Origin: an uncultured delta proteobacterium
GTDB lineage: Bacteria > Desulfobacterota > Binatia > UBA9968
Assembly (NCBI GenBank): GCA_963745035.1
Contig: CAVUVW010000027.1
Span: 32,001 to 96,000, forward strand
Length of the DNA stretch: 64,000 nt
Reading direction: 5' to 3'
Shown: one piece after another, positions 15,327-22,451 of the stretch
Numbering within the stretch: position 1 is the stretch's first letter
How the letters are laid out: every line of letters begins with the position of its first letter
The notes under the pieces: generated by a model
Databases searched by the model: none
Seen by the model: only the letters and a program-made list of their open reading frames with translations
What the model was told of the DNA's origin: nothing
Position numbers and translations under genes: made by a program

Positions 15327-16283
15327 CTACCGTAGACCCAACTCCTTCTGAATTTCTCGTAGAATACTGAAATCGGCGATCTCGCCGAGTGGCACTTCGC
15401 GAGTGATTTTTGCGTCGCGCTTGGCCTGATCGATCAGCAGCTTCAATCCATCCTCAGGGATGCCGCCGTCGGCGCTGATGACTTTTACCGTCGCATCATA
15501 GGACGCGTAGGCGTGTTCCGGCTTGGCCTTTCCCCACTCCATTAAAATTTTTGCGGCTTCCTCCCGATTGTCGCGAATGAAACGGCTTGCCTTGATCAAG
15601 GCTTTGGTCGTCCGTTTAACCTGGTCGCGGTTTTGCTGAATCGATTTCGCGTTCAATCCGACACCGGACAGCGGATAATTCAGATATTCATAGGCGCGCG
15701 CCAGAACGTTGAATCCCGACTTCTTGCCCTCGAAGTCCCATGGCGGTGAGGTGACCACGGCGTCGGCGAGTTTTTGTTGCAATCCCGCAAACCGGCCAGA
15801 ATCCGGGCCGAGCGGCACGAATTGAACTTCCTTGTCGGGATCGACGCCGTTGCGCGCCAGGATAATTCTTGCCAGGACTTGCGTGGCGTCGCCGAAGCCG
15901 GCGAGACCGATTTTTTTGCCGCTCAGATCTTTAATCGATTTGATATCCGCGCGCGCGAGCAAGACGTGCGGAGAGCTGGTCATCAAACCGGCCACTAAGC
16001 GAACCGGCAATCCGCGAATCGCCGCCCGAATCACGGTACCGGTCAACAGAGTGAAATCGATGTCACCGTTCGAGAGCGCAGCGATCGACGGCGCGGCGCC
16101 CATGACGACAATGTCGGCGTCGAGTCCTTCGTCCTTGAAAAATCCCTTACGCTGCGCAACTCCGGCGGGTAGAAAAATCATGTTGTAGCCGCCGGAGACC
16201 GAGATGCGGATTTTTTCCGCGGCGTAAGCATCGAAAACGCCGAAGAAGACGGCTAGGAGCAGGCCAAAGCGGATTCCCGTCAT
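15327..16283 (-). CDS. NitT/TauT (SsuA/THI5-like) ABC substrate-binding protein
   Basis: Signal peptide, KGFFKDEGLD and DLSGKKIG; paralog of 60542..61495. Confidence 0.88.
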   Translation of the reverse strand: MTGIRFGLLLAVFFGVFDAYAAEKIRISVSGGYNMIFLPAGVAQRKGFFKDEGLDADIVVMGAAPSIAALSNGDIDFTLLTGTVIRAAIRGLPVRLVAGLMTSSPHVLLARADIKSIKDLSGKKIGLAGFGDATQVLARIILARNGVDPDKEVQFVPLGPDSGRFAGLQQKLADAVVTSPPWDFEGKKSGFNVLARAYEYLNYPLSGVGLNAKSIQQNRDQVKRTTKALIKASRFIRDNREEAAKILMEWGKAKPEHAYASYDATVKVISADGGIPEDGLKLLIDQAKRDAKITREVPLGEIADFSILREIQKELGLR

Positions 16284-16383
16284 AATGAACCTCCGAACGG
16301 CTCGACGCTTTACGAAGTTTATAACCGCCAGCACGAACTGCTTCCCGACCTACAATGACTTAGACGCGTTGTAAGGCGGTTGG

Positions 16384-16889: not shown

Positions 16890-17420
16890 CTACCGCCGGT
16901 TGTCGTTAGACTCGGGCCGCAGATTGTCGATCGGCTGAATAAGCTGCGTCTCGACATCGTCGGGTATTTCAGCACGGCGCACAATCTTTGGCCATAGCTC
17001 AAGCGGCGGTGCTTTGATCAATGACGCATCGAGCGCGACATCATCAAGATCGTCGTGCAAAAAAGGGCGCTGGCCGCAATGACGGGCATCGCACGAGGCG
17101 CGGATCCCCGGACGGCACTCGCGCCAATGGCAGATGCGGCCGATGTAGTTACCGGACGGATCGGCCAGAAAGATGTCAGCACCTCTATTTTGGCTCTGAG
17201 CGTGTCCTTTCAGTCTTCGACCCGCGGCTGCTAGGTGAGTGAGATCGGCGTCATCATCGACAGTGACCAGCACGTCGGCATCCTTCGGATCGGTTTTGCC
17301 TGTTGTCAGCGAACCGATGAGCGCGATGCGACGAACACCTGGAAAAAATCGAGCATGCTCGACAAACTGCCGGACCTCGGAGAGTAGAACAGTTCGAATT
17401 GTTGACTCGCCGTTTGTCAC
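16890..17420 (-). CDS. Nucleotidyltransferase-domain protein with Cys/His-rich insert
   Basis: Pol-beta/MNT motif RIALIGSLTTGKTDPKDADVLV; CHWREC...CDARHC cluster. Confidence 0.7.
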   Translation of the reverse strand: MTNGESTIRTVLLSEVRQFVEHARFFPGVRRIALIGSLTTGKTDPKDADVLVTVDDDADLTHLAAAGRRLKGHAQSQNRGADIFLADPSGNYIGRICHWRECRPGIRASCDARHCGQRPFLHDDLDDVALDASLIKAPPLELWPKIVRRAEIPDDVETQLIQPIDNLRPESNDNRR

Positions 17421-17755
17421 CTGTCATTGCCTAGCATGTAAATAAGGTTGCTGGCCCATTGTTCTATCTGCGTTGAGGCGAATCGTTCAAACATCCCGCG
17501 TGGAACGTCCGCTATGCCCGATACTTCCAAGGTCGAGTCATCGTTATTCGCGATTTACCTTCTTGATCGACATATTGTCAATCGTGGGTCGCTGGCGAAC
17601 CTTCAACACAGCTGGTCAGTAGAGAGCACGCGCGATCAGAGGTTCTCAGGATGCGACTTGGATTAGGAGCGATTCTAGAGTCGATCCTTACTCCGTCGCA
17701 ATCTACTTGACCTGTTCCAAGCGCGGGGTGTAGTTGTGGCGAAGCAAGGACGGGC

Positions 17756-17778
17756 GGCGTATGCAATACGCCTTTACA
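17756..17778. repeat. Degenerate REP-like palindrome
   Basis: GGCGTAT-GCA-ATACGCC followed by TTTACA, just upstream of the cupin gene. Confidence 0.45.
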
Positions 17779-17816
17779 AAGAATCATTGGGCGACCATTC
17801 AAGACTAGGAGGTAAG

Positions 17817-18191
17817 ATGCGCGTACTTAAAATTGGTGAGCTGCAGGAAAAACCGATGGATACCGCGACGCCGATCGCCGGGTGGACTGGTGGAGAGGTG
17901 AGCCGGACGCGGCAAGCGGTGATCGGCGACGGGCAGTCGGAAAATTTTCGCTGCAACGTCGTCAACTTTCGCGTCGGGGCGACCACGGGGTGGCATGTGC
18001 ATGATTGCGACCAGATTCTCGTCGTTACGGCGGGGAAGGGCAAGGTTGCAACTGAAGGCGAAGAGCGCGACATCGCCGTCGGCGATATCGTGCATATCAA
18101 AGCCGGCGAGCGCCACTGGCACGGCGCGACAGCGGAAACTCCGATGTCGCACATCACGGTGACGACGGTCGGCAGCACCTCGAAGCATTGA
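17817..18191 (+). CDS. Cupin-domain protein
   Basis: GWHVHDCDQIL and GDIVHIKAGERHWHG metal motifs; GGAGG RBS. Confidence 0.9.
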   Translation: MRVLKIGELQEKPMDTATPIAGWTGGEVSRTRQAVIGDGQSENFRCNVVNFRVGATTGWHVHDCDQILVVTAGKGKVATEGEERDIAVGDIVHIKAGERHWHGATAETPMSHITVTTVGSTSKH

Positions 18192-18233
18192 GCAGCGTAC
18201 TGATCCGGCTTTAGCTTCGGAGGAGGAATAGTC

Positions 18234-19124
18234 ATGCAAATTCTCAAAGGCGACTTGAGTAACGTCAAAGGAATCCCTCCGAGCGGGCTCTGCGTCGGTG
18301 TTCATCGGGCGGGCGCCGTGCACCAGAAGATGGTCGCGAAGCACGGCGAAGGTCTTGCGGTCTGGTCGCTCAGACCCGATCTTGATTTCATCGCTTTCAA
18401 AAAGGAAGGGTTGGGGGAACAGGGAATTCGCTCGACTAGCGACATGGAATCAATAGACGCGGATGAAAAACTGATATACGGCGTGCGCGGGGCGCCGCCC
18501 GAGGTGAGAGAAAAAGCGCGCGAAAAAGGCCTCACGCTGCTGGCCGACGCGACCTGTCCTTTCGTGACTCAGCAGGAAGAGGCGGAAATCGAGCTGCTGA
18601 ACGCCGGCTGTCACCTGGTCGTTCTCAGCAGCCGCACGCATCACGGCATCCCAAGGCTCCAGGGGATTGCGCAAGCGAAAGGCAAAGAGGTCTTTATCGT
18701 CGAACGCGAAGAAGAAGTCCATTCGATTCGTCTCACTCGTTTCGAGCCCATCGGCGTGATTGTGCAGACGACCTTCTGGTTGGAAACTTACAAGAAAATT
18801 ATCGGGCGCATACTCGAGCGCTTCGCCAACGTGCAGATTCGCAACACAGCTTGCATCGACTCGCTGCAGCGTCTTCCAGAAGTCGAGAAGCTTGCCAAAC
18901 AAGTCGATGCGATCATTATTTTCGGCTGGACCGAAGGAATGACAACCCGAATGGTCGAAGTTGCGCGGGCTTTCAATGCTCATGTGCACAAAATTGAAAA
19001 AGTCGACGATCTCCAGCTCGATTGGCTGCGGGGAAAAGAGAAGGTGGGCATCATCGGCGCCAACGAGACTCCCGAATGGATGATCAATGAGGCAATCGAG
19101 CGCATCAAAAGCATGGCGGCCTGA
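18234..19124 (+). CDS. IspH/LytB-family [4Fe-4S] protein, divergent (HMBPP-reductase-like fold)
   Basis: Three cluster cysteines retained (GLCVGV, DATCPFV, NTACID) and VQTT; substrate-binding His/Glu/SSN motifs altered. Confidence 0.85.
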   Translation: MQILKGDLSNVKGIPPSGLCVGVHRAGAVHQKMVAKHGEGLAVWSLRPDLDFIAFKKEGLGEQGIRSTSDMESIDADEKLIYGVRGAPPEVREKAREKGLTLLADATCPFVTQQEEAEIELLNAGCHLVVLSSRTHHGIPRLQGIAQAKGKEVFIVEREEEVHSIRLTRFEPIGVIVQTTFWLETYKKIIGRILERFANVQIRNTACIDSLQRLPEVEKLAKQVDAIIIFGWTEGMTTRMVEVARAFNAHVHKIEKVDDLQLDWLRGKEKVGIIGANETPEWMINEAIERIKSMAA

Positions 19125-19127
19125 GCT

Positions 19128-19409
19128 ATGCCGAAAGTGACTTTCATGCCGGCCGGACAGTCCTTTGAAGTGGCGGCGGGCACGACGATCCTGGTTTCGG
19201 CGATCCAGAACGGCTTACAGCTGCGCCACGACTGCACCGAAGCGATTTGCGGCACGGACCGGGTGAAGATCCTGTCCGGTAAAGAACAGCTGAGCGAAAA
19301 GGATGAGAACGAGGAATTGACCCTCGAAATGATGAACGCAGAGCCGGACGACAGGCTGGCTTGCGTCGCGCGGATTATCGGCGACGTGACTGTCCTAGTG
19401 ATCGACTGA
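19128..19409 (+). CDS. [2Fe-2S] ferredoxin (CxxxxCxxD...C)
   Basis: HDCTEAICGTDRVKI...RLAC; starts 3 nt after the IspH-like stop. Confidence 0.88.
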   Translation: MPKVTFMPAGQSFEVAAGTTILVSAIQNGLQLRHDCTEAICGTDRVKILSGKEQLSEKDENEELTLEMMNAEPDDRLACVARIIGDVTVLVID

Positions 19410-19458
19410 ACAACCCAAGGAAAACCGAGAGAGCTTACCGCCCGATTAAGGAGTAGCG

Positions 19459-20013
19459 ATGGCTTACATCAAAACCATCCCGCCTGCAGAGGCGACCGGC
19501 AAGCTCAAAGAGGTTTACAGCGCCAGCAGCGGGCCGTCGGCGGCGCGCGGAAAGGTGGCGATGATTCGCCAGGTACAGAGCTTGAATCCTGACGCTCTTG
19601 CGGCCTGGAGCGCCCTCGGCGCTGAGATCATGCATGGCCGGTCGCGGATCACGCGTCGCCAGCGCGAGATGATCGCCACGGTGGTATCAGCAGCCAATCA
19701 CTGTAGTTATTGAATGACGGCGCACGGGGAGGCTCTCCGTACTGAATCGAACGACGATCCTCTGGTCGAAGGCATCAAGCGGGATTACACCCAGTTGAAT
19801 TTGCCGGCGGCCGAGCGGGCGATGTTGGATTACGCCGTAAAACTGACGGCGGCGCCGTCGAGCGTCGATGAAAGCGACATCAAAAACTTGCGCTCCCACG
19901 GCTTCGACGACCGGGATATTCTAGATATCGTCTACGTGATCTGCCTGTACAATTTTAACGACCGGATGGCGGACGCGACCGGAATCAAAGGGCATGATTT
20001 TCTGGCGGGTTGA
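19459..20013 (+). CDS. AhpD/carboxymuconolactone-decarboxylase-like peroxidase-related protein, probable selenoprotein (UGA=Sec at 19711-19713)
   Basis: ORFs 19459..19713 and 19714..20013 are in the same frame; readthrough gives REMIATVVSAANHCSY-U-MTAHG, matching the family NxCxYCxxxH motif; 184 aa. Confidence 0.85.
19722..19742 (+). promoter_or_regulatory. Candidate bacterial SECIS hairpin
   Basis: ACGGGGA-GGC-TCTCCGT stem-loop (one G-U pair) starting 11 nt after the UGA, with G in the apical loop. Confidence 0.6.
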
Positions 20014-20042
20014 ACTTCAGCGCGCTCAAAAGGCAAAGAATG

Positions 20043-20146
20043 CTTCGACGAGTCAGCATGAACGGAACATCACCAATAACATCCAATCCCCTCCGCTCGT
20101 CCTGAGACTGTCGAAGGACTGGATTCCCGCGAAACATGCGGAAATG
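20043..20146. repeat. Mosaic of palindromic REP-like elements
   Basis: CTTCGAC..TCAGCATGAACGG / CCGCTCGTCCTGAGACTGTCGAAGG (same family as 37178-37255), followed by CTGGATTCCCGC..ACATGCGG (reverse copy of the 37801 family arm). Confidence 0.65.
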
Positions 20147-20181
20147 CGGATTTTGGAGCCGGTGGCTCGGGAGATTCAGCG

Positions 20182-20289
20182 ATGATCGAGCTTTATCACA
20201 ATGACATGTCGGTTTGCGCGCAGAAGGTGCGCCGGCTGCATCTTTACGAGGAGAGAGTGTTTTTTAAGTCGTCGCAGAAGTACGCCTAG
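20182..20289 (+). pseudogene. Glutathione S-transferase N-terminal stub
   Basis: MIELYHNDMSVCAQKVR is a typical GST start with a GGAG RBS; similarity stops after about 17 codons. Confidence 0.55.
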
Positions 20290-20466
20290 ACTTTCATGCT
20301 AGATCTTGAGTTCGGGCGTCTGGTCTTTAGATATCGCTTCCGTGCTGGTTCAAGCCTACCTGCAGCCAACATCGCACGTCCGATTTGTGCGCAGAAATCG
20401 TCATCACCGCATAGAAGCGCAAAAAACTCGGTGCCTCCGACGGGGTCGGCCCTCAAATTTCTGCAT
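20286..20466 (-). pseudogene. Truncated, frameshifted second gene-cassette ORF
   Basis: ATG lies inside the attC core GTTATGC; reads MQKFEG/DPVGGTEFFALLCGDDDFCAQIGRAMLAAGRLE; no downstream attC. Confidence 0.45.
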
Positions 20467-20522
20467 AACAGCAAGTTAAGCCGCCAATCGGTTCCTTGGT
20501 CAGCTTCAACTTTATGTTAGGC
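20463..20522 (-). mobile_element. Integron attC site (60 bp)
   Basis: Minus strand: R'' GCCTAAC, 5 nt, L'' GTTGAAGC (extra G), 21 nt, L' GCTTAAC, 5 nt, R' GTTATGC. Confidence 0.85.
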
Positions 20523-21292: not shown

Positions 21293-22451
21293 ATGAAATT
21301 CTCGATCTTCATGATGCCGCTGCATCATCCGACGGAGAACCCGTCGTTGGCGTTTCGATCGCGACATCGAGTTGATTCATTACGCCGAGGAGTTGGGCTT
21401 TGACGAGTTTTTTATCGGCGAGCACCACTCCGGCGGCTGGGAAACCATGCCGGCGCCGGAGATGGCGCTGGCCAAAGCCTCGGCGCGGGCGCATCGCATT
21501 CGCCTCGGCACTTCCGTCATCAGCGTGCCGTTTCACCATCCGTTTCACGTCGCCGAGCGTATGGCATTTCTGGACCACCTGACGCATGGTCGAGCCATTC
21601 TCGGCGTCGGTCCTTGCGCTTTGGTTACGGATAAGAATCTCTTCGGATTGGCGACCGAAAAGCTATACCCGATGATGGCCGAATCCGTGGACATCATCGT
21701 GCGCCTGCTCGAGTCGCCGGAGCCGGTCGATTACGACGGGCAATTCTGGAAAATTAAACAAATGCGCCTGCAACTGCGCTCCTACCAGCAGCCGCGCATG
21801 CCACTCGCCATCGCGTCATCGGGAAATCGGGTCAGCATCGAACTCGCCGGGAAGTACGGCATGCTGTTCTTGTCGCCGGCGGGGAAAAATATACGGAACA
21901 ATCAATCCAAAGCCGAGCAGTGGAAGGCGGTCGAAGCGACCGCCGCAAAGCACGGCATGCAAACTTCTCGCGACAACTGGCGCATCGCTACTTGCGTGTA
22001 CCTCGCCGAGAGCCGGGAAGAAGCGTGGCGCGACGTCGAAGCGAGCATCGATCGCGACAAGGAGTATTTTTTTTCCATCGGCTTGAAGGCGCCTTACGAA
22101 GCTTATCCGGGGCAGCCGGCGCATGAAATCACGGCGCGTTCGGGCGCCGACCGCCGCGATTGGATCATCGGCACGCCCGACGACGCTATTGCTCAGATCG
22201 AGCGCATGCAGGCGGAAACCGGCGGTTTCGGTGGCTTGATGGTGACCACGCACGAATGGACTTCAACCGATAAGCTGCGCCGATCCTATGAACTATTCGC
22301 GCGCTATGTGATGCCACATTTTCGCGGCCACACCGACGGCTATCGCGACCAATGGCGGCGTATTCAGGAAGCTGTCAATAATGGTGGGAATGTAAGTGAG
22401 AGCGCCGGCAAGTCGGGCAACGCTACTCTTAAAGAGGGTGCGCGATCATGA
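21293..22451 (+). CDS. LLM-class flavin-dependent monooxygenase (frameshift near 21357)
   Basis: MKFSIFMMPLHHP start, GFDEFFIGEHHS and HPFHVAERMAFLDHLTHGR. Confidence 0.9.

What the first reader, a model, noticed from the sequence alone, without database searches (positions are those of the whole stretch)
17817..20013. Candidate new redox system: cupin + remodelled IspH + Asp-ligated ferredoxin + AhpD-like selenoprotein
Seen: four co-oriented genes separated by only 42, 3 and 49 nt, with clear RBSs on three of them. Three carry a non-standard feature at the metal or redox centre: an IspH with an altered pocket, a ferredoxin with Cys->Asp, and an AhpD with Cys->UGA. Established: IspH is a [4Fe-4S] enzyme with an open Fe site that needs a ferredoxin or flavodoxin donor; canonical ispH usually sits with cmk/rpsA or lspA; cupins often co-occur with CMD/AhpD genes. 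Inference: this is a dedicated non-isoprenoid reductive module, for example reductive dehydroxylation or deoxygenation of a non-phosphorylated substrate, with its own electron donor and a Sec redox partner. I do not know a described operon with this composition.
Basis: partly seen in the sequence, partly recalled or inferred. Interest (0 to 1): 0.88.

Follow-up and report, generated by a model that had tools for sequence, protein, structure and literature searches.

The report
Remodelled IspH paralogue with Asp-ferredoxin partner
A soil bacterium of the Binatia carries, beside its normal isoprenoid enzyme IspH, a second IspH-like iron-sulfur enzyme whose substrate pocket is completely rebuilt and which always travels with its own unusual ferredoxin, pointing to an undescribed reductive reaction on a non-isoprenoid substrate.

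Summary
Four co-oriented genes lie 42, 3 and 49 nt apart: a cupin, an IspH-like protein, a 2Fe-2S ferredoxin with Cys-x4-Cys-x2-Asp, and an AhpD-like CxxU selenoprotein.

- **Conserved unit:** only the IspH-like gene plus the ferredoxin. The ferredoxin follows directly in 89 of 92 related loci. It was found in 5 of 5 tested genomes that carry the paralogue and in 0 of 5 close relatives that lack it.
- **Paralogue:** it keeps the three cluster cysteines and Thr-Thr. His41, His74, Glu126, Ser225/Asn227 and Ser269 are replaced, invariantly in 129 orthologues. All 6 genomes tested also hold a canonical IspH.
- **Cupin and AhpD selenoprotein:** recurrent but facultative neighbours. Longer collinear clusters add more AhpD(U) paralogues, an OCD-family enzyme and a reductive-dehalogenase-like protein. 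One genus pairs the paralogue with UbiD instead.
- **AhpD selenoprotein:** real, but a published family. Support is a hairpin after the UGA plus selA, selB, selD and tRNA-Sec in the genome.

Best reading: a two-component reductase for a non-diphosphate substrate. The substrate is unknown. I rate it a new variant of a known enzyme family.

The parts
17817..18191 (+). Small metal-binding cupin (124 aa). A facultative upstream neighbour.
   Evidence: Cupin_2 at 45.8 bits. Nearest NCBIfam model is (R)-mandelonitrile lyase at 83.5 bits, below its 140 cut-off. AGGAGG precedes the ATG. Orthologues of 83-93% identity lie upstream of the IspH-like gene in some loci. dN/dS is 0.09 against L018.
18234..19124 (+). 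IspH-like [4Fe-4S] protein (296 aa) with a rebuilt substrate pocket. The core enzyme.
   Evidence: LYTB at 154.9 bits. Every IspH equivalog model scores below its cut-off, e.g. TIGR00216 at 137.1 against 187.85. The AF2 model has pLDDT 90.7 and TM 0.83 to E. coli IspH:HMBPP structures. Pocket positions are invariant in 129 orthologues. dN/dS is 0.08-0.10.
19128..19409 (+). 2Fe-2S ferredoxin (93 aa) with C36, C41, D44 and C79. The presumed dedicated electron donor.
   Evidence: Fer2 at 41 bits. D44 aligns to the third Cys ligand of solved ferredoxins. The same C-x4-C-G-[ST]-D stretch aligns to E. coli SdhB residues 55-63. It is immediately downstream of the IspH-like gene in 89 of 92 loci and co-occurs with it across genomes.
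19459..20013 (+). AhpD-like / TIGR01926 'peroxidase-related' selenoprotein (184 aa) with a CSYU redox motif.
   Evidence: Read with TGA=U it gives one open frame. TIGR01926 scores 142.6 bits over residues 9-176, spanning the TGA. Orthologues of 77-86% identity keep the TGA. It is the only match above the family cut-off in the 7.4-Mb genome.
19711..19713 (+). In-frame UGA read as selenocysteine.
   Evidence: The genome holds tRNA-Sec at 76.7 bits, selB, selA, and selD with its own TGA.
19724..19740 (+). SECIS-like hairpin: 7-bp stem, 3-nt loop, starting 10 nt after the UGA.
   Evidence: Folds. Across 20 sequences 99.3% of cells are paired, against 28-66% when the partner is slid. One pair changes G-C to C-G in 5 sequences of one paralogue group, through a Gly->Ala change matched by a synonymous Leu codon change.

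Best explanation
The functional core is a two-gene redox module. One gene encodes an IspH-family [4Fe-4S] enzyme. It keeps the cluster-binding cysteines and the Thr-Thr that sits next to the substrate hydroxyl and the open Fe site. Every residue that holds the diphosphate of HMBPP, and the proton-donor Glu126, has been replaced. The clade has its own invariant set instead: an acidic residue at 51, R85, Q114-E115, H136-H137-G138, R141, F181-W182, and W232/E234/M236 in the Binatia orthologues. The other gene encodes a dedicated 2Fe-2S ferredoxin ligated by three Cys and one Asp, which delivers the electrons.

Inferred: the enzyme carries out IspH-type chemistry at the unique iron. The most likely reaction is a two-electron reductive dehydroxylation of an allylic-type alcohol. 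The substrate is not a diphosphate. Two invariant arginines, two histidines and new aromatic residues suggest a carboxylate- or aryl-bearing compound.

The cupin and the AhpD-like CxxU selenoprotein in the window are accessory members of a variable gene cluster with a catabolic or detoxification look. In fuller versions it also holds two to four more AhpD-like proteins, an ornithine-cyclodeaminase/mu-crystallin-family enzyme, a short reductive-dehalogenase-family protein, a beta-etherase-like GST and a divergent GntR/UTRA regulator. The window carries a reduced version of that cluster.

Shown: the residue pattern, fold, synteny, co-occurrence, purifying selection and Sec decoding capacity. Inferred: cluster content, electron transfer, reaction type and substrate class.
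For: 1. It is an extra copy. The own genome has a canonical IspH at 322.5 bits and the paralogue at 154.6 bits. Five of five other paralogue-bearing genomes also have both, at 311-325 against 143-158 bits.

2. The pocket is remodelled but under selection.
- The roles of Cys12/96/197, His41(42), His74, His124, Glu126 and Thr167 come from passages of PMC9745026 and PMC8837944.
- The positions are invariant in 127-129 of 129 orthologues, with no stops.
- dN/dS is 0.08-0.10.
- R85, Q114, E115, H137, G138 and R141 are also invariant in members only 30-45% identical (A2 and A4).

3. It is a distinct clade. In a library of 1.84 billion representatives, only 29 of 3810 hits reach E<=1e-30. Identity drops from 40-45% straight to about 30% for canonical IspH. 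In a 91-row tree, 9 rows sit on one side of a branch with SH-aLRT 99.

4. It has the IspH fold, with TM 0.83 to E. coli IspH.

5. The ferredoxin is coupled to it.
- It lies immediately downstream in 89 of 92 loci.
- In three g207 genomes an orthologue of 65-69% identity that keeps the Asp motif lies elsewhere in the chromosome. With G338 and G528 that makes 5 of 5 genomes.
- It was not found in 0 of 5 close relatives (98-100% complete) that lack the paralogue.

6. The context is rich in redox and aromatic-type families.

7. RNA-library contigs match parts of the IspH-like gene with 0-3 differences and the AhpD 5' part with 1 difference. This is a weak sign of expression.
Against: - No biochemical datum exists for any member.
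- The substrate cannot be derived from sequence.
- Neighbours other than the ferredoxin vary widely. In 45 of 83 loci none of the queried families is immediately upstream. The context therefore gives several incompatible hints: OCD family, RDH family, beta-etherase-like GST, UbiD.
- Three group-A loci (L023, L139, L140) lack an adjacent ferredoxin.
- The loci are metagenome contigs from related populations, so the counts are not independent.
- The gene context of the distant clade members (P0010, P0014, P0027, P0029) could not be examined.
- P0027 seems to lack the first cysteine.
- That Asp44 is the fourth ligand, rather than the equally invariant His34 or Asp35, is inferred from alignment only.
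- No RNA contig bridges a gene junction, so co-transcription is not shown.
Confidence: 0.6

Rival explanations
1. One reading: cupin, IspH-like, ferredoxin and AhpD-like selenoprotein form one obligate four-component redox system, with the selenoprotein as a redox partner of the enzyme.
For: The four are co-oriented with short gaps. The same contiguous order recurs in L085. The order cupin ... IspH-like-Fdx ... AhpD(U) is collinear in L076, L077, L018 and L003. The window's AhpD gene is the only TIGR01926 member above cut-off in 7.4 Mb, so chance adjacency is unlikely. AhpD-family genes are immediately upstream in 18 of 83 loci.
Against: Genus g207 (3 of 3 genomes tested) has the paralogue and the ferredoxin but no cupin orthologue and no AhpD homologue at E<=1e-10. 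In G528 and G338 the cupin orthologue lies on another contig or about 2 Mb away. The cupin appears anywhere in only 16 of 106 group-A loci and the AhpD(U) orthologue in 14 of 106; these are lower bounds because flanks vary.
Confidence: 0.12
2. It is a second HMBPP reductase isozyme, for example a stress- or oxygen-tolerant one, comparable to LytB1/LytB2 of mycobacteria.
For: It belongs to the LYTB family and fold. Two non-redundant IspH homologues in one genome are known (PMC4550268, abstract seen).
Against: His41, His74, Glu126 and the Ser/Asn residues are all replaced, partly by acidic residues. All IspH equivalog models score below their cut-offs. The gene is patchy within its own genus: 1 of 6 other genomes.
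Confidence: 0.07
3. It reduces a phosphate monoester analogue, for example hydroxymethylbutenyl monophosphate to dimethylallyl monophosphate. That would feed the UbiX/UbiD prenyl-FMN system.
For: In 26 of 26 group-B loci a UbiD-family gene follows within the locus, directly adjacent in 24. The invariant R85, R141, H136 and H137 could hold a single phosphate. This is inference only.
Against: No UbiD is present in the group-A clusters. Most genomes of the class lack the paralogue: 229 of 251. No UbiX was seen beside it. No paper found links IspH homologues to prFMN.
Confidence: 0.06
4. It is not a reductase. It would be a non-redox Fe-S hydratase or isomerase, or an Fe-S sensor protein, with the ferredoxin serving another role.
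For: IspH itself hydrates acetylenes, as told in PMC8837944. Loss of the Glu126 proton donor could mean different chemistry.
Against: The tight coupling and co-inheritance with a small ferredoxin is what one expects of an electron-consuming enzyme.
Confidence: 0.1

Closest known systems
IspH / LytB, HMBPP reductase (E. coli 3KE8, A. aeolicus 3DNF)
   Same: It matches Pfam LYTB. The three-domain fold agrees at TM 0.83. It has three cluster cysteines and the equivalents of His124 and Thr167/Thr168. It needs a ferredoxin- or flavodoxin-type donor.
   Different: The equivalents of His41, His74, Glu126, Ser225/Ser226/Asn227 and Ser269 are replaced. There is a 3-residue insertion after His124, and a new invariant Q-E pair sits 5-6 residues after the second cysteine. 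It scores below all IspH equivalog cut-offs. It coexists with a canonical IspH.
Mycobacterium tuberculosis LytB1/LytB2 (two IspH homologues in one genome)
   Same: Two LytB-family genes in one genome that are not redundant (PMC4550268, abstract only).
   Different: From recall, both mycobacterial proteins are regarded as HMBPP reductases with the canonical residues. Here the pocket is rebuilt.
[2Fe-2S] centre of E. coli succinate dehydrogenase SdhB
   Same: The same C-x4-C-G-[ST]-D spacing is present. BLASTP aligns window residues 30-56 to SdhB 49-74, with D44 on D63. That Asp63 ligates the cluster in the solved enzyme is recalled, not checked here.
   Different: SdhB is a three-cluster subunit of a membrane complex. 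Here the motif sits in a free 93-aa ferredoxin whose nearest solved relatives are all-Cys ISC-type and oxygenase-type ferredoxins.
AhpD-like selenoprotein families 1 and 2 (Zhang and Gladyshev, GOS and Sargasso Sea selenoproteomes)
   Same: It has the CMD/COG2128 fold family and a CxxU motif (PMC2398784 table). It matches TIGR01926 above cut-off.
   Different: Nothing essential differs. The tandem arrays next to an IspH paralogue are a context I did not find described: up to four TGA-bearing AhpD-like genes within 7 kb in L005.

Membership tests
IspH/LytB HMBPP reductase | Pfam LYTB domain and the IspH fold | tested here: met
   PF02401 at 154.9 bits. AF2 model with pLDDT 90.7. Foldseek TM 0.83 and E 1e-19 to 1e-22 to IspH structures.
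IspH/LytB HMBPP reductase | Score above the curated equivalog cut-off | tested here: not met
   TIGR00216 at 137.1 against 187.85. NF002187 at 142.9 against 276. All 8 IspH models score below their cut-offs.
IspH/LytB HMBPP reductase | Three cysteines binding the [4Fe-4S] cluster (E. coli Cys12, Cys96, Cys197) | tested here: met
   C20, C108 and C207 align. They are present in 127, 129 and 129 of 129 orthologues.
IspH/LytB HMBPP reductase | Substrate-binding histidines His41(42), His74 and His124 | tested here: not met
   D51 and R85 replace the first two. Only H136 (His124) is kept. The roles come from PMC9745026.
IspH/LytB HMBPP reductase | Glu126 proton donor | tested here: not met
   G138 in the HMMER alignment and R141 in the MAFFT alignment. 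No conserved Glu is present in this segment of the clade.
IspH/LytB HMBPP reductase | Thr167 next to the substrate hydroxyl | tested here: met
   The Q178-T179-T180 segment is invariant.
IspH/LytB HMBPP reductase | Diphosphate-binding Ser225, Ser226, Asn227 and Ser269 (roles partly recalled; Asn227 named in PMC8837944) | tested here: not met
   E234-G235-M236 and E278 occupy these positions.
IspH/LytB HMBPP reductase | HMBPP reductase activity / being the genome's MEP-pathway enzyme | not testable with these tools
   A separate canonical copy exists in 6 of 6 genomes tested. Activity needs the bench.
Plant/ISC-type 2Fe-2S ferredoxin (PF00111) | Fer2 domain | tested here: met
   41 bits against a cut-off of 21. 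Nearest structures are 1i7h and 9i2a.
Plant/ISC-type 2Fe-2S ferredoxin (PF00111) | Four cysteine ligands | tested here: not met
   The third ligand position is Asp44 in 24 of 24 and 13 of 13 orthologues.
AhpD-like CxxU selenoprotein (TIGR01926 / CMD) | Family model above cut-off, spanning the TGA | tested here: met
   142.6 bits against 81.8, over residues 9-176.
AhpD-like CxxU selenoprotein (TIGR01926 / CMD) | UGA at the second redox position, conserved in relatives | tested here: met
   CSY* and CRF* in 20 genes. The CxxU motif is as published.
AhpD-like CxxU selenoprotein (TIGR01926 / CMD) | SECIS stem-loop shortly after the UGA | tested here: inconclusive
   A 7-bp hairpin starts 10 nt after the UGA, with 99.3% of cells paired. 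Only one compensatory pair is seen, probably a single event, and the stem is also constrained by coding. No Rfam match.
AhpD-like CxxU selenoprotein (TIGR01926 / CMD) | Sec decoding machinery in the genome | tested here: met
   tRNA-Sec at 76.7 bits, selB at 346.9, selA at 592.3 and selD at 384.6 with one TGA.
(R)-mandelonitrile lyase cupin (NF049940) | Equivalog cut-off | tested here: not met
   83.5 bits against 140. It can only be filed as a generic Cupin_2 protein.

The most novel reading that the evidence does not exclude
A natural IspH-family enzyme has left isoprenoid metabolism. Together with a dedicated Asp-ligated [2Fe-2S] ferredoxin, it would perform organometallic-type reductive dehydroxylation, or a related reduction, on a carboxylate- or aryl-bearing substrate. 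In soil Binatia it would work within a gene cluster of up to ten genes that also recruits several CxxU AhpD-like selenoproteins, an imine-reductase/cyclodeaminase-family enzyme and a reductive-dehalogenase-like protein. That would be a new multi-component reductive catabolic pathway.
Probability: 0.35. Interest if true: 0.8.

Novelty: new variant of a known kind. Interest (0 to 1): 0.62.

Why it matters
IspH is studied intensely as a drug target and as a model of bio-organometallic Fe-S catalysis. As far as my searches show, it is treated as a one-substrate family. A conserved, selected subfamily that keeps the open-iron site but has exchanged the entire substrate-holding shell would show that this chemistry has been reused for another substrate. 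Its private ferredoxin with a rare Cys3Asp ligand set adds to that. Together they give a defined pair of small proteins to express and test. It also warns that genes annotated as HMBPP reductase in metagenomes are not all MEP-pathway enzymes.

Tried and rejected
- **Complex prediction.** The IspH-like (A4) with ferredoxin (A3) job returned "no answer": score 0.30, mark 0.32, controls not run. It counts neither for nor against binding.
- **Promoter and terminator scan** of 17300-20500 gave nothing usable for operon borders.
- **Rfam** on the whole window gave no match, so there is no curated SECIS or riboswitch hit.
- **Reads.** Only Logan contigs were available. Three RNA-library runs cover short pieces. 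No contig bridges a gene junction and large parts have no cover. Co-transcription and transcript ends could not be judged. The DNA run X1 covered only 17700-18058.
- **Metagenome scan with the clade alignment.** It kept only the 80 best loci, all 72-98% identical. The context of distant members (40-45% identity) was not reached.
- **ESM Atlas with P0010** returned only LytB clusters, with no useful taxonomy.
- **The search for homologous proteins with P0010 and P0004** showed only close relatives, all named HMBPP reductase or ferredoxin. No context was available.
- **Plasmid search with P0003** found 80 records, all below 60% identity. The ten listed lie at 26-28% and look like canonical IspH.
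- **Literature.** No paper describing a pocket-remodelled IspH paralogue or an IspH-UbiD/prFMN link turned up in the searches, or in the passages of PMC4746011 read. The library lacks most subscription journals, so this is not proof of absence. The Oldfield "four classes of IspH" paper, which I recall, was not found and not read.
- **SdhB ligand.** The search for an Asp63 statement found only an unrelated use of "Asp63". The ligand role stays recalled.
- **Substrate ideas considered, none testable here:**
  - 4-hydroxy-pyrroline-2-carboxylate type, suggested by the OCD family and UbiD neighbours;
  - cinnamyl-type alcohols, suggested by the beta-etherase-like GST, UbiD and VOC neighbours;
  - hydroxymethylbutenyl monophosphate.
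- **Counts.** The first synteny count used coordinate windows that were too tight and undercounted GST and cupin. It was replaced.
Full report
**What is there.**

The window is G000:C27:32001-96000 of a 7.4-Mb assembly in 28 contigs. Relatives found by sequence are titled Candidatus Binatia or "delta proteobacterium" MAGs from soils.

At 17817-20013 four ORFs lie on the + strand with gaps of 42, 3 and 49 nt.
- Cupin: 124 aa, Cupin_2 at 45.8 bits.
- LytB/IspH-family protein: 296 aa, PF02401 at 154.9 bits.
- Fer2 ferredoxin: 93 aa, 41 bits.
- CMD/AhpD-family protein: read through one TGA it is 184 aa and matches TIGR01926 at 142.6 bits against a cut-off of 81.8.

Shine-Dalgarno-like purine runs precede three of the four starts. 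The ferredoxin starts 3 nt after the IspH-like stop.

**The IspH-like protein.**

It scores below the curated cut-off of all eight NCBIfam IspH models, e.g. TIGR00216 at 137.1 against 187.85. The same genome has a canonical IspH elsewhere, at C13 with 322.5 bits.

I used the HMMER alignment to the A. aeolicus structure 3dnf, whose chain numbering reproduces Cys13, His42, His74 and His124. I also used a MAFFT alignment with canonical IspHs, including the genome's own.
- Kept: the cluster cysteines (C20, C108, C207), His124 (H136) and Thr167/168 (T179/T180).
- Replaced: His41/42 is D51 and His74 is R85. Glu126 is G138, or R141 in the MAFFT alignment, which places a three-residue insertion here. 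The Ser-Ser-Asn stretch is E234-G235-M236 and Ser269 is E278.

The roles of the cysteines, the three histidines, Glu126 and Thr167 are stated in PMC9745026 (passage). Those of His42/His124, and the hydrophilic site Glu126/Thr167/Thr168/Thr200/Asn227, are in PMC8837944 (passages). The roles of Ser225, Ser226 and Ser269 are recalled.

The AF2 model is confident (pLDDT 90.7). It superposes on E. coli IspH:HMBPP complexes with TM 0.83.

**It is a selected subfamily, not a decaying copy.**

- Among 129 near-full-length orthologues in 132 fetched loci, none has a stop. All 24 pocket and cluster positions examined are invariant in 127-129 of them.
- dN/dS against orthologues at 73-85% identity is 0.08-0.10.
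- A scan of 1.84 billion representatives gave 3810 hits, but only 29 at E<=1e-30. After the orthologues come a few full-length members at 45% and 40% identity (P0010, P0014) and at 36% and 34% (P0027, P0029). Canonical IspHs follow at about 30%.
- In a 91-row tree these nine rows form one side of a branch with SH-aLRT 99. The 82 other rows are only the nearest canonical representatives. Rows outside 255-345 aa were left out.
- R85, Q114, E115, H137, G138 and R141 stay invariant across the clade. Position 51 is Asp or Glu in the members aligned.

**Distribution.**

- In an even sample of 251 genomes of the class, the paralogue was found in 22, counting G000, at E<=1e-60. All 22 are in one order.
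  - Family f1, the window's own: 3 of 19, and only 1 of 6 other genomes of the window's genus.
  - Family f99, genus g207: 15 of 15.
  - Family f100: 3 of 3.
- In a 301-genome sample of the phylum, no other genome had a match above 35% identity.
- Five of five paralogue-bearing genomes tested also hold a canonical IspH.

**Synteny.**

I fetched 52 loci from one-genome-per-species contigs and 80 from metagenomes. These were the best 80 of 252 relatives, all 72-98% identical. I located 13 query families in them by tblastn.

Group A (106 loci, at least 75% identity):
- The ferredoxin is the next gene, under 300 nt away, in 89 of 92 loci with at least 400 nt of downstream sequence. The exceptions are L023, L139 and L140.
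- Immediately upstream, in 83 loci with at least 800 nt of flank:
  - an AhpD-family gene without Sec in 18;
  - a beta-etherase-like GST in 11;
  - the cupin in 8;
  - a GntR regulator in 1;
  - none of the queried families in 45.
- The contiguous four-gene order of the window recurs only in L085, 1 of 67 loci with enough flank.
- Longer loci show a collinear, co-directional series (L076, L005, L018, L011): cupin; AhpD(U); AhpD(U); AhpD-like without Sec; IspH-like; ferredoxin; OCD/mu-crystallin family; a 301-aa reductive-dehalogenase-family protein; AhpD(U), the orthologue of the window's gene; AhpD(U). A divergent GntR/UTRA regulator goes with it.
- The window therefore holds a reduced version of that series.

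Family assignments of the neighbours are all below equivalog cut-offs: OCD_Mu_crystall at 113.5 bits, TIGR02486 RDH at 108.6 against 160, beta-etherase at 142 against 440.

Group B (26 loci, 71-74% identity, genus g207): no ferredoxin is adjacent. Instead a UbiD-family decarboxylase follows, adjacent in 24 and in the locus in 26. Next come a TIGR00725/SLOG protein in 26 and an AI-2E transporter in 23. A VOC-family gene lies upstream in 14.

These contigs come from related populations and are not independent samples.

**Coupling of enzyme and ferredoxin.**

- In the three g207 genomes tested, an orthologue of the ferredoxin exists elsewhere on the chromosome, at 65-69% identity with the C-x4-C-G-T-D motif kept. 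In G540 it lies about 550 kb from the paralogue.
- With G338 and G528 that makes 5 of 5 paralogue-bearing genomes.
- In five close relatives without the paralogue (98-100% complete), the ferredoxin was not found at E<=1e-5.
- By contrast, the cupin orthologue was found in 2 of 5 paralogue-bearing genomes and not adjacent. AhpD homologues were found in 2 of 5, and only at 36-42% identity. Neither was found in the three g207 genomes.

The conserved unit is therefore the pair.

**The ferredoxin.**

- D44 aligns to the third cysteine ligand of solved all-Cys ferredoxins, in the C-x4-C-G-T-C stretch of 9i2a and 6icm.
- H34, D35, C36, C41, D44 and C79 are invariant in 13 of 13 sequences spanning 65-91% identity.
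- BLASTP places the motif on E. coli SdhB residues 55-63, which have the same C-x4-C-G-S-D spacing.
- That the SdhB aspartate ligates its [2Fe-2S] cluster is recalled, not verified here.
- dN/dS is about 0.2.

**The selenoprotein.**

- The TGA replaces the second redox residue, reading CSYU.
- The same codon is TGA in 20 AhpD-like genes of four paralogue groups.
- A 7-bp hairpin starts 10 nt after the UGA. It is paired in 99.3% of cells, against 28-66% when the partner is slid. One G-C to C-G exchange is achieved by a Gly->Ala change matched by a synonymous Leu change. That is probably a single event, and the stem is also under coding constraint.
- The genome has tRNA-Sec, selA, selB and a TGA-containing selD.
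- AhpD-like CxxU selenoprotein families are published (PMC2398784), so this part is a known kind.
- The gene is the only TIGR01926 member above cut-off in the genome, so its position next to the pair is unlikely to be chance.

**Expression.**

Contigs from three RNA libraries match pieces of the region.
- 18472-18647, 3 differences.
- 18843-19007, 0 differences.
- 19439-19685, 1 difference.
- 17700-17931, 3 differences.

The tool warns that DNA can be present in such libraries. This is only a weak hint.

**Interpretation.**

The evidence fits an IspH-derived enzyme that still uses the open iron of a [4Fe-4S] cluster and receives electrons from its private Cys3Asp ferredoxin. It acts on a substrate without a diphosphate.
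- Two invariant arginines and two histidines suggest an anionic group such as a carboxylate or a single phosphate.
- New Phe/Trp/Met residues suggest a more hydrophobic or aromatic body.
- The invariant Q114-E115 after the second cysteine is a candidate replacement for the lost proton donor. This is inference.

Reductive dehydroxylation of an allylic-type alcohol is the most economical guess. The neighbours point to catabolism of plant-derived, aromatic or amino-acid-derived compounds, but they do not agree on one substrate. Those neighbours are the OCD family, RDH family, beta-etherase-like GST, UbiD, VOC, cupin and CMD family.

**Comparison and novelty.**

In the searches, and in the passages read, I found no description of an IspH subfamily with a rebuilt pocket or of this pairing. 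Public sources name these proteins HMBPP reductase.

I rate it a new variant of a known enzyme family. The AhpD(U) and cupin parts are ordinary in kind.

Noticed in passing
L005:3114-9708 (also L076, L077, L017, L016): Tandem arrays of AhpD-like genes around the IspH-like gene. Up to four carry the in-frame TGA (CRFU or CSYU), and one has no Sec but a shifted C-x-x-C. That is a dense cluster of selenoprotein paralogues within about 7 kb.
   Followed up: partly
G000:C17:315264-319742 and C17:371273-371363 (L063, L071, L072, L055): selA, selB and selD lie next to one another. selD itself contains one in-frame TGA. tRNA-Sec lies about 50 kb away on the same contig.
   Followed up: partly
L005:7369-8271 and orthologues (22 of 106 group-A loci): A short (301 aa) cytoplasmic-looking protein of the reductive dehalogenase family (TIGR02486 at 108.6 bits, below cut-off) with two 4Fe-4S motifs. 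It lies between the OCD-family gene and the AhpD(U) gene. It is absent from the window.
   Followed up: no
L036:3915-9089 and 25 similar loci (genus g207): A conserved set: VOC, IspH-like, UbiD-family decarboxylase (nearest models phenylphosphate carboxylase beta and VdcC), TIGR00725/SLOG protein, AI-2E transporter. This is a different, fixed context for the same paralogue.
   Followed up: partly
L158:1864-2718: In G540 the unlinked ferredoxin orthologue is followed by a 284-aa ORF. By eye it resembles the PEP mutase / methylisocitrate lyase family. It was not scanned.
   Followed up: no
L019:4363-5887 and L045:468-1732: In L019 the cupin and IspH-like genes are hit in several frames. In L045 the IspH-like gene gives two overlapping hits. 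These are frameshifts or an assembly duplication in those records.
   Followed up: no
L007, L013, L014, L016, L049, L051: Copies 89-93% identical sit in MAGs titled Verrucomicrobiia, Gaiellaceae and Candidatus Udaeobacter. One Udaeobacter MAG has four such contigs. This looks like mis-binning of Binatia contigs rather than transfer.
   Followed up: no
window:14502-15281, 15327-16334, 21372-22451: Flanking genes: a two-domain VOC/glyoxalase-like protein (its family also occurs near L003, L018 and L019), a periplasmic binding protein on the minus strand, and a 359-aa ORF downstream that I took by eye for a luciferase-like monooxygenase (no family scan was run). None was analysed further.
   Followed up: no
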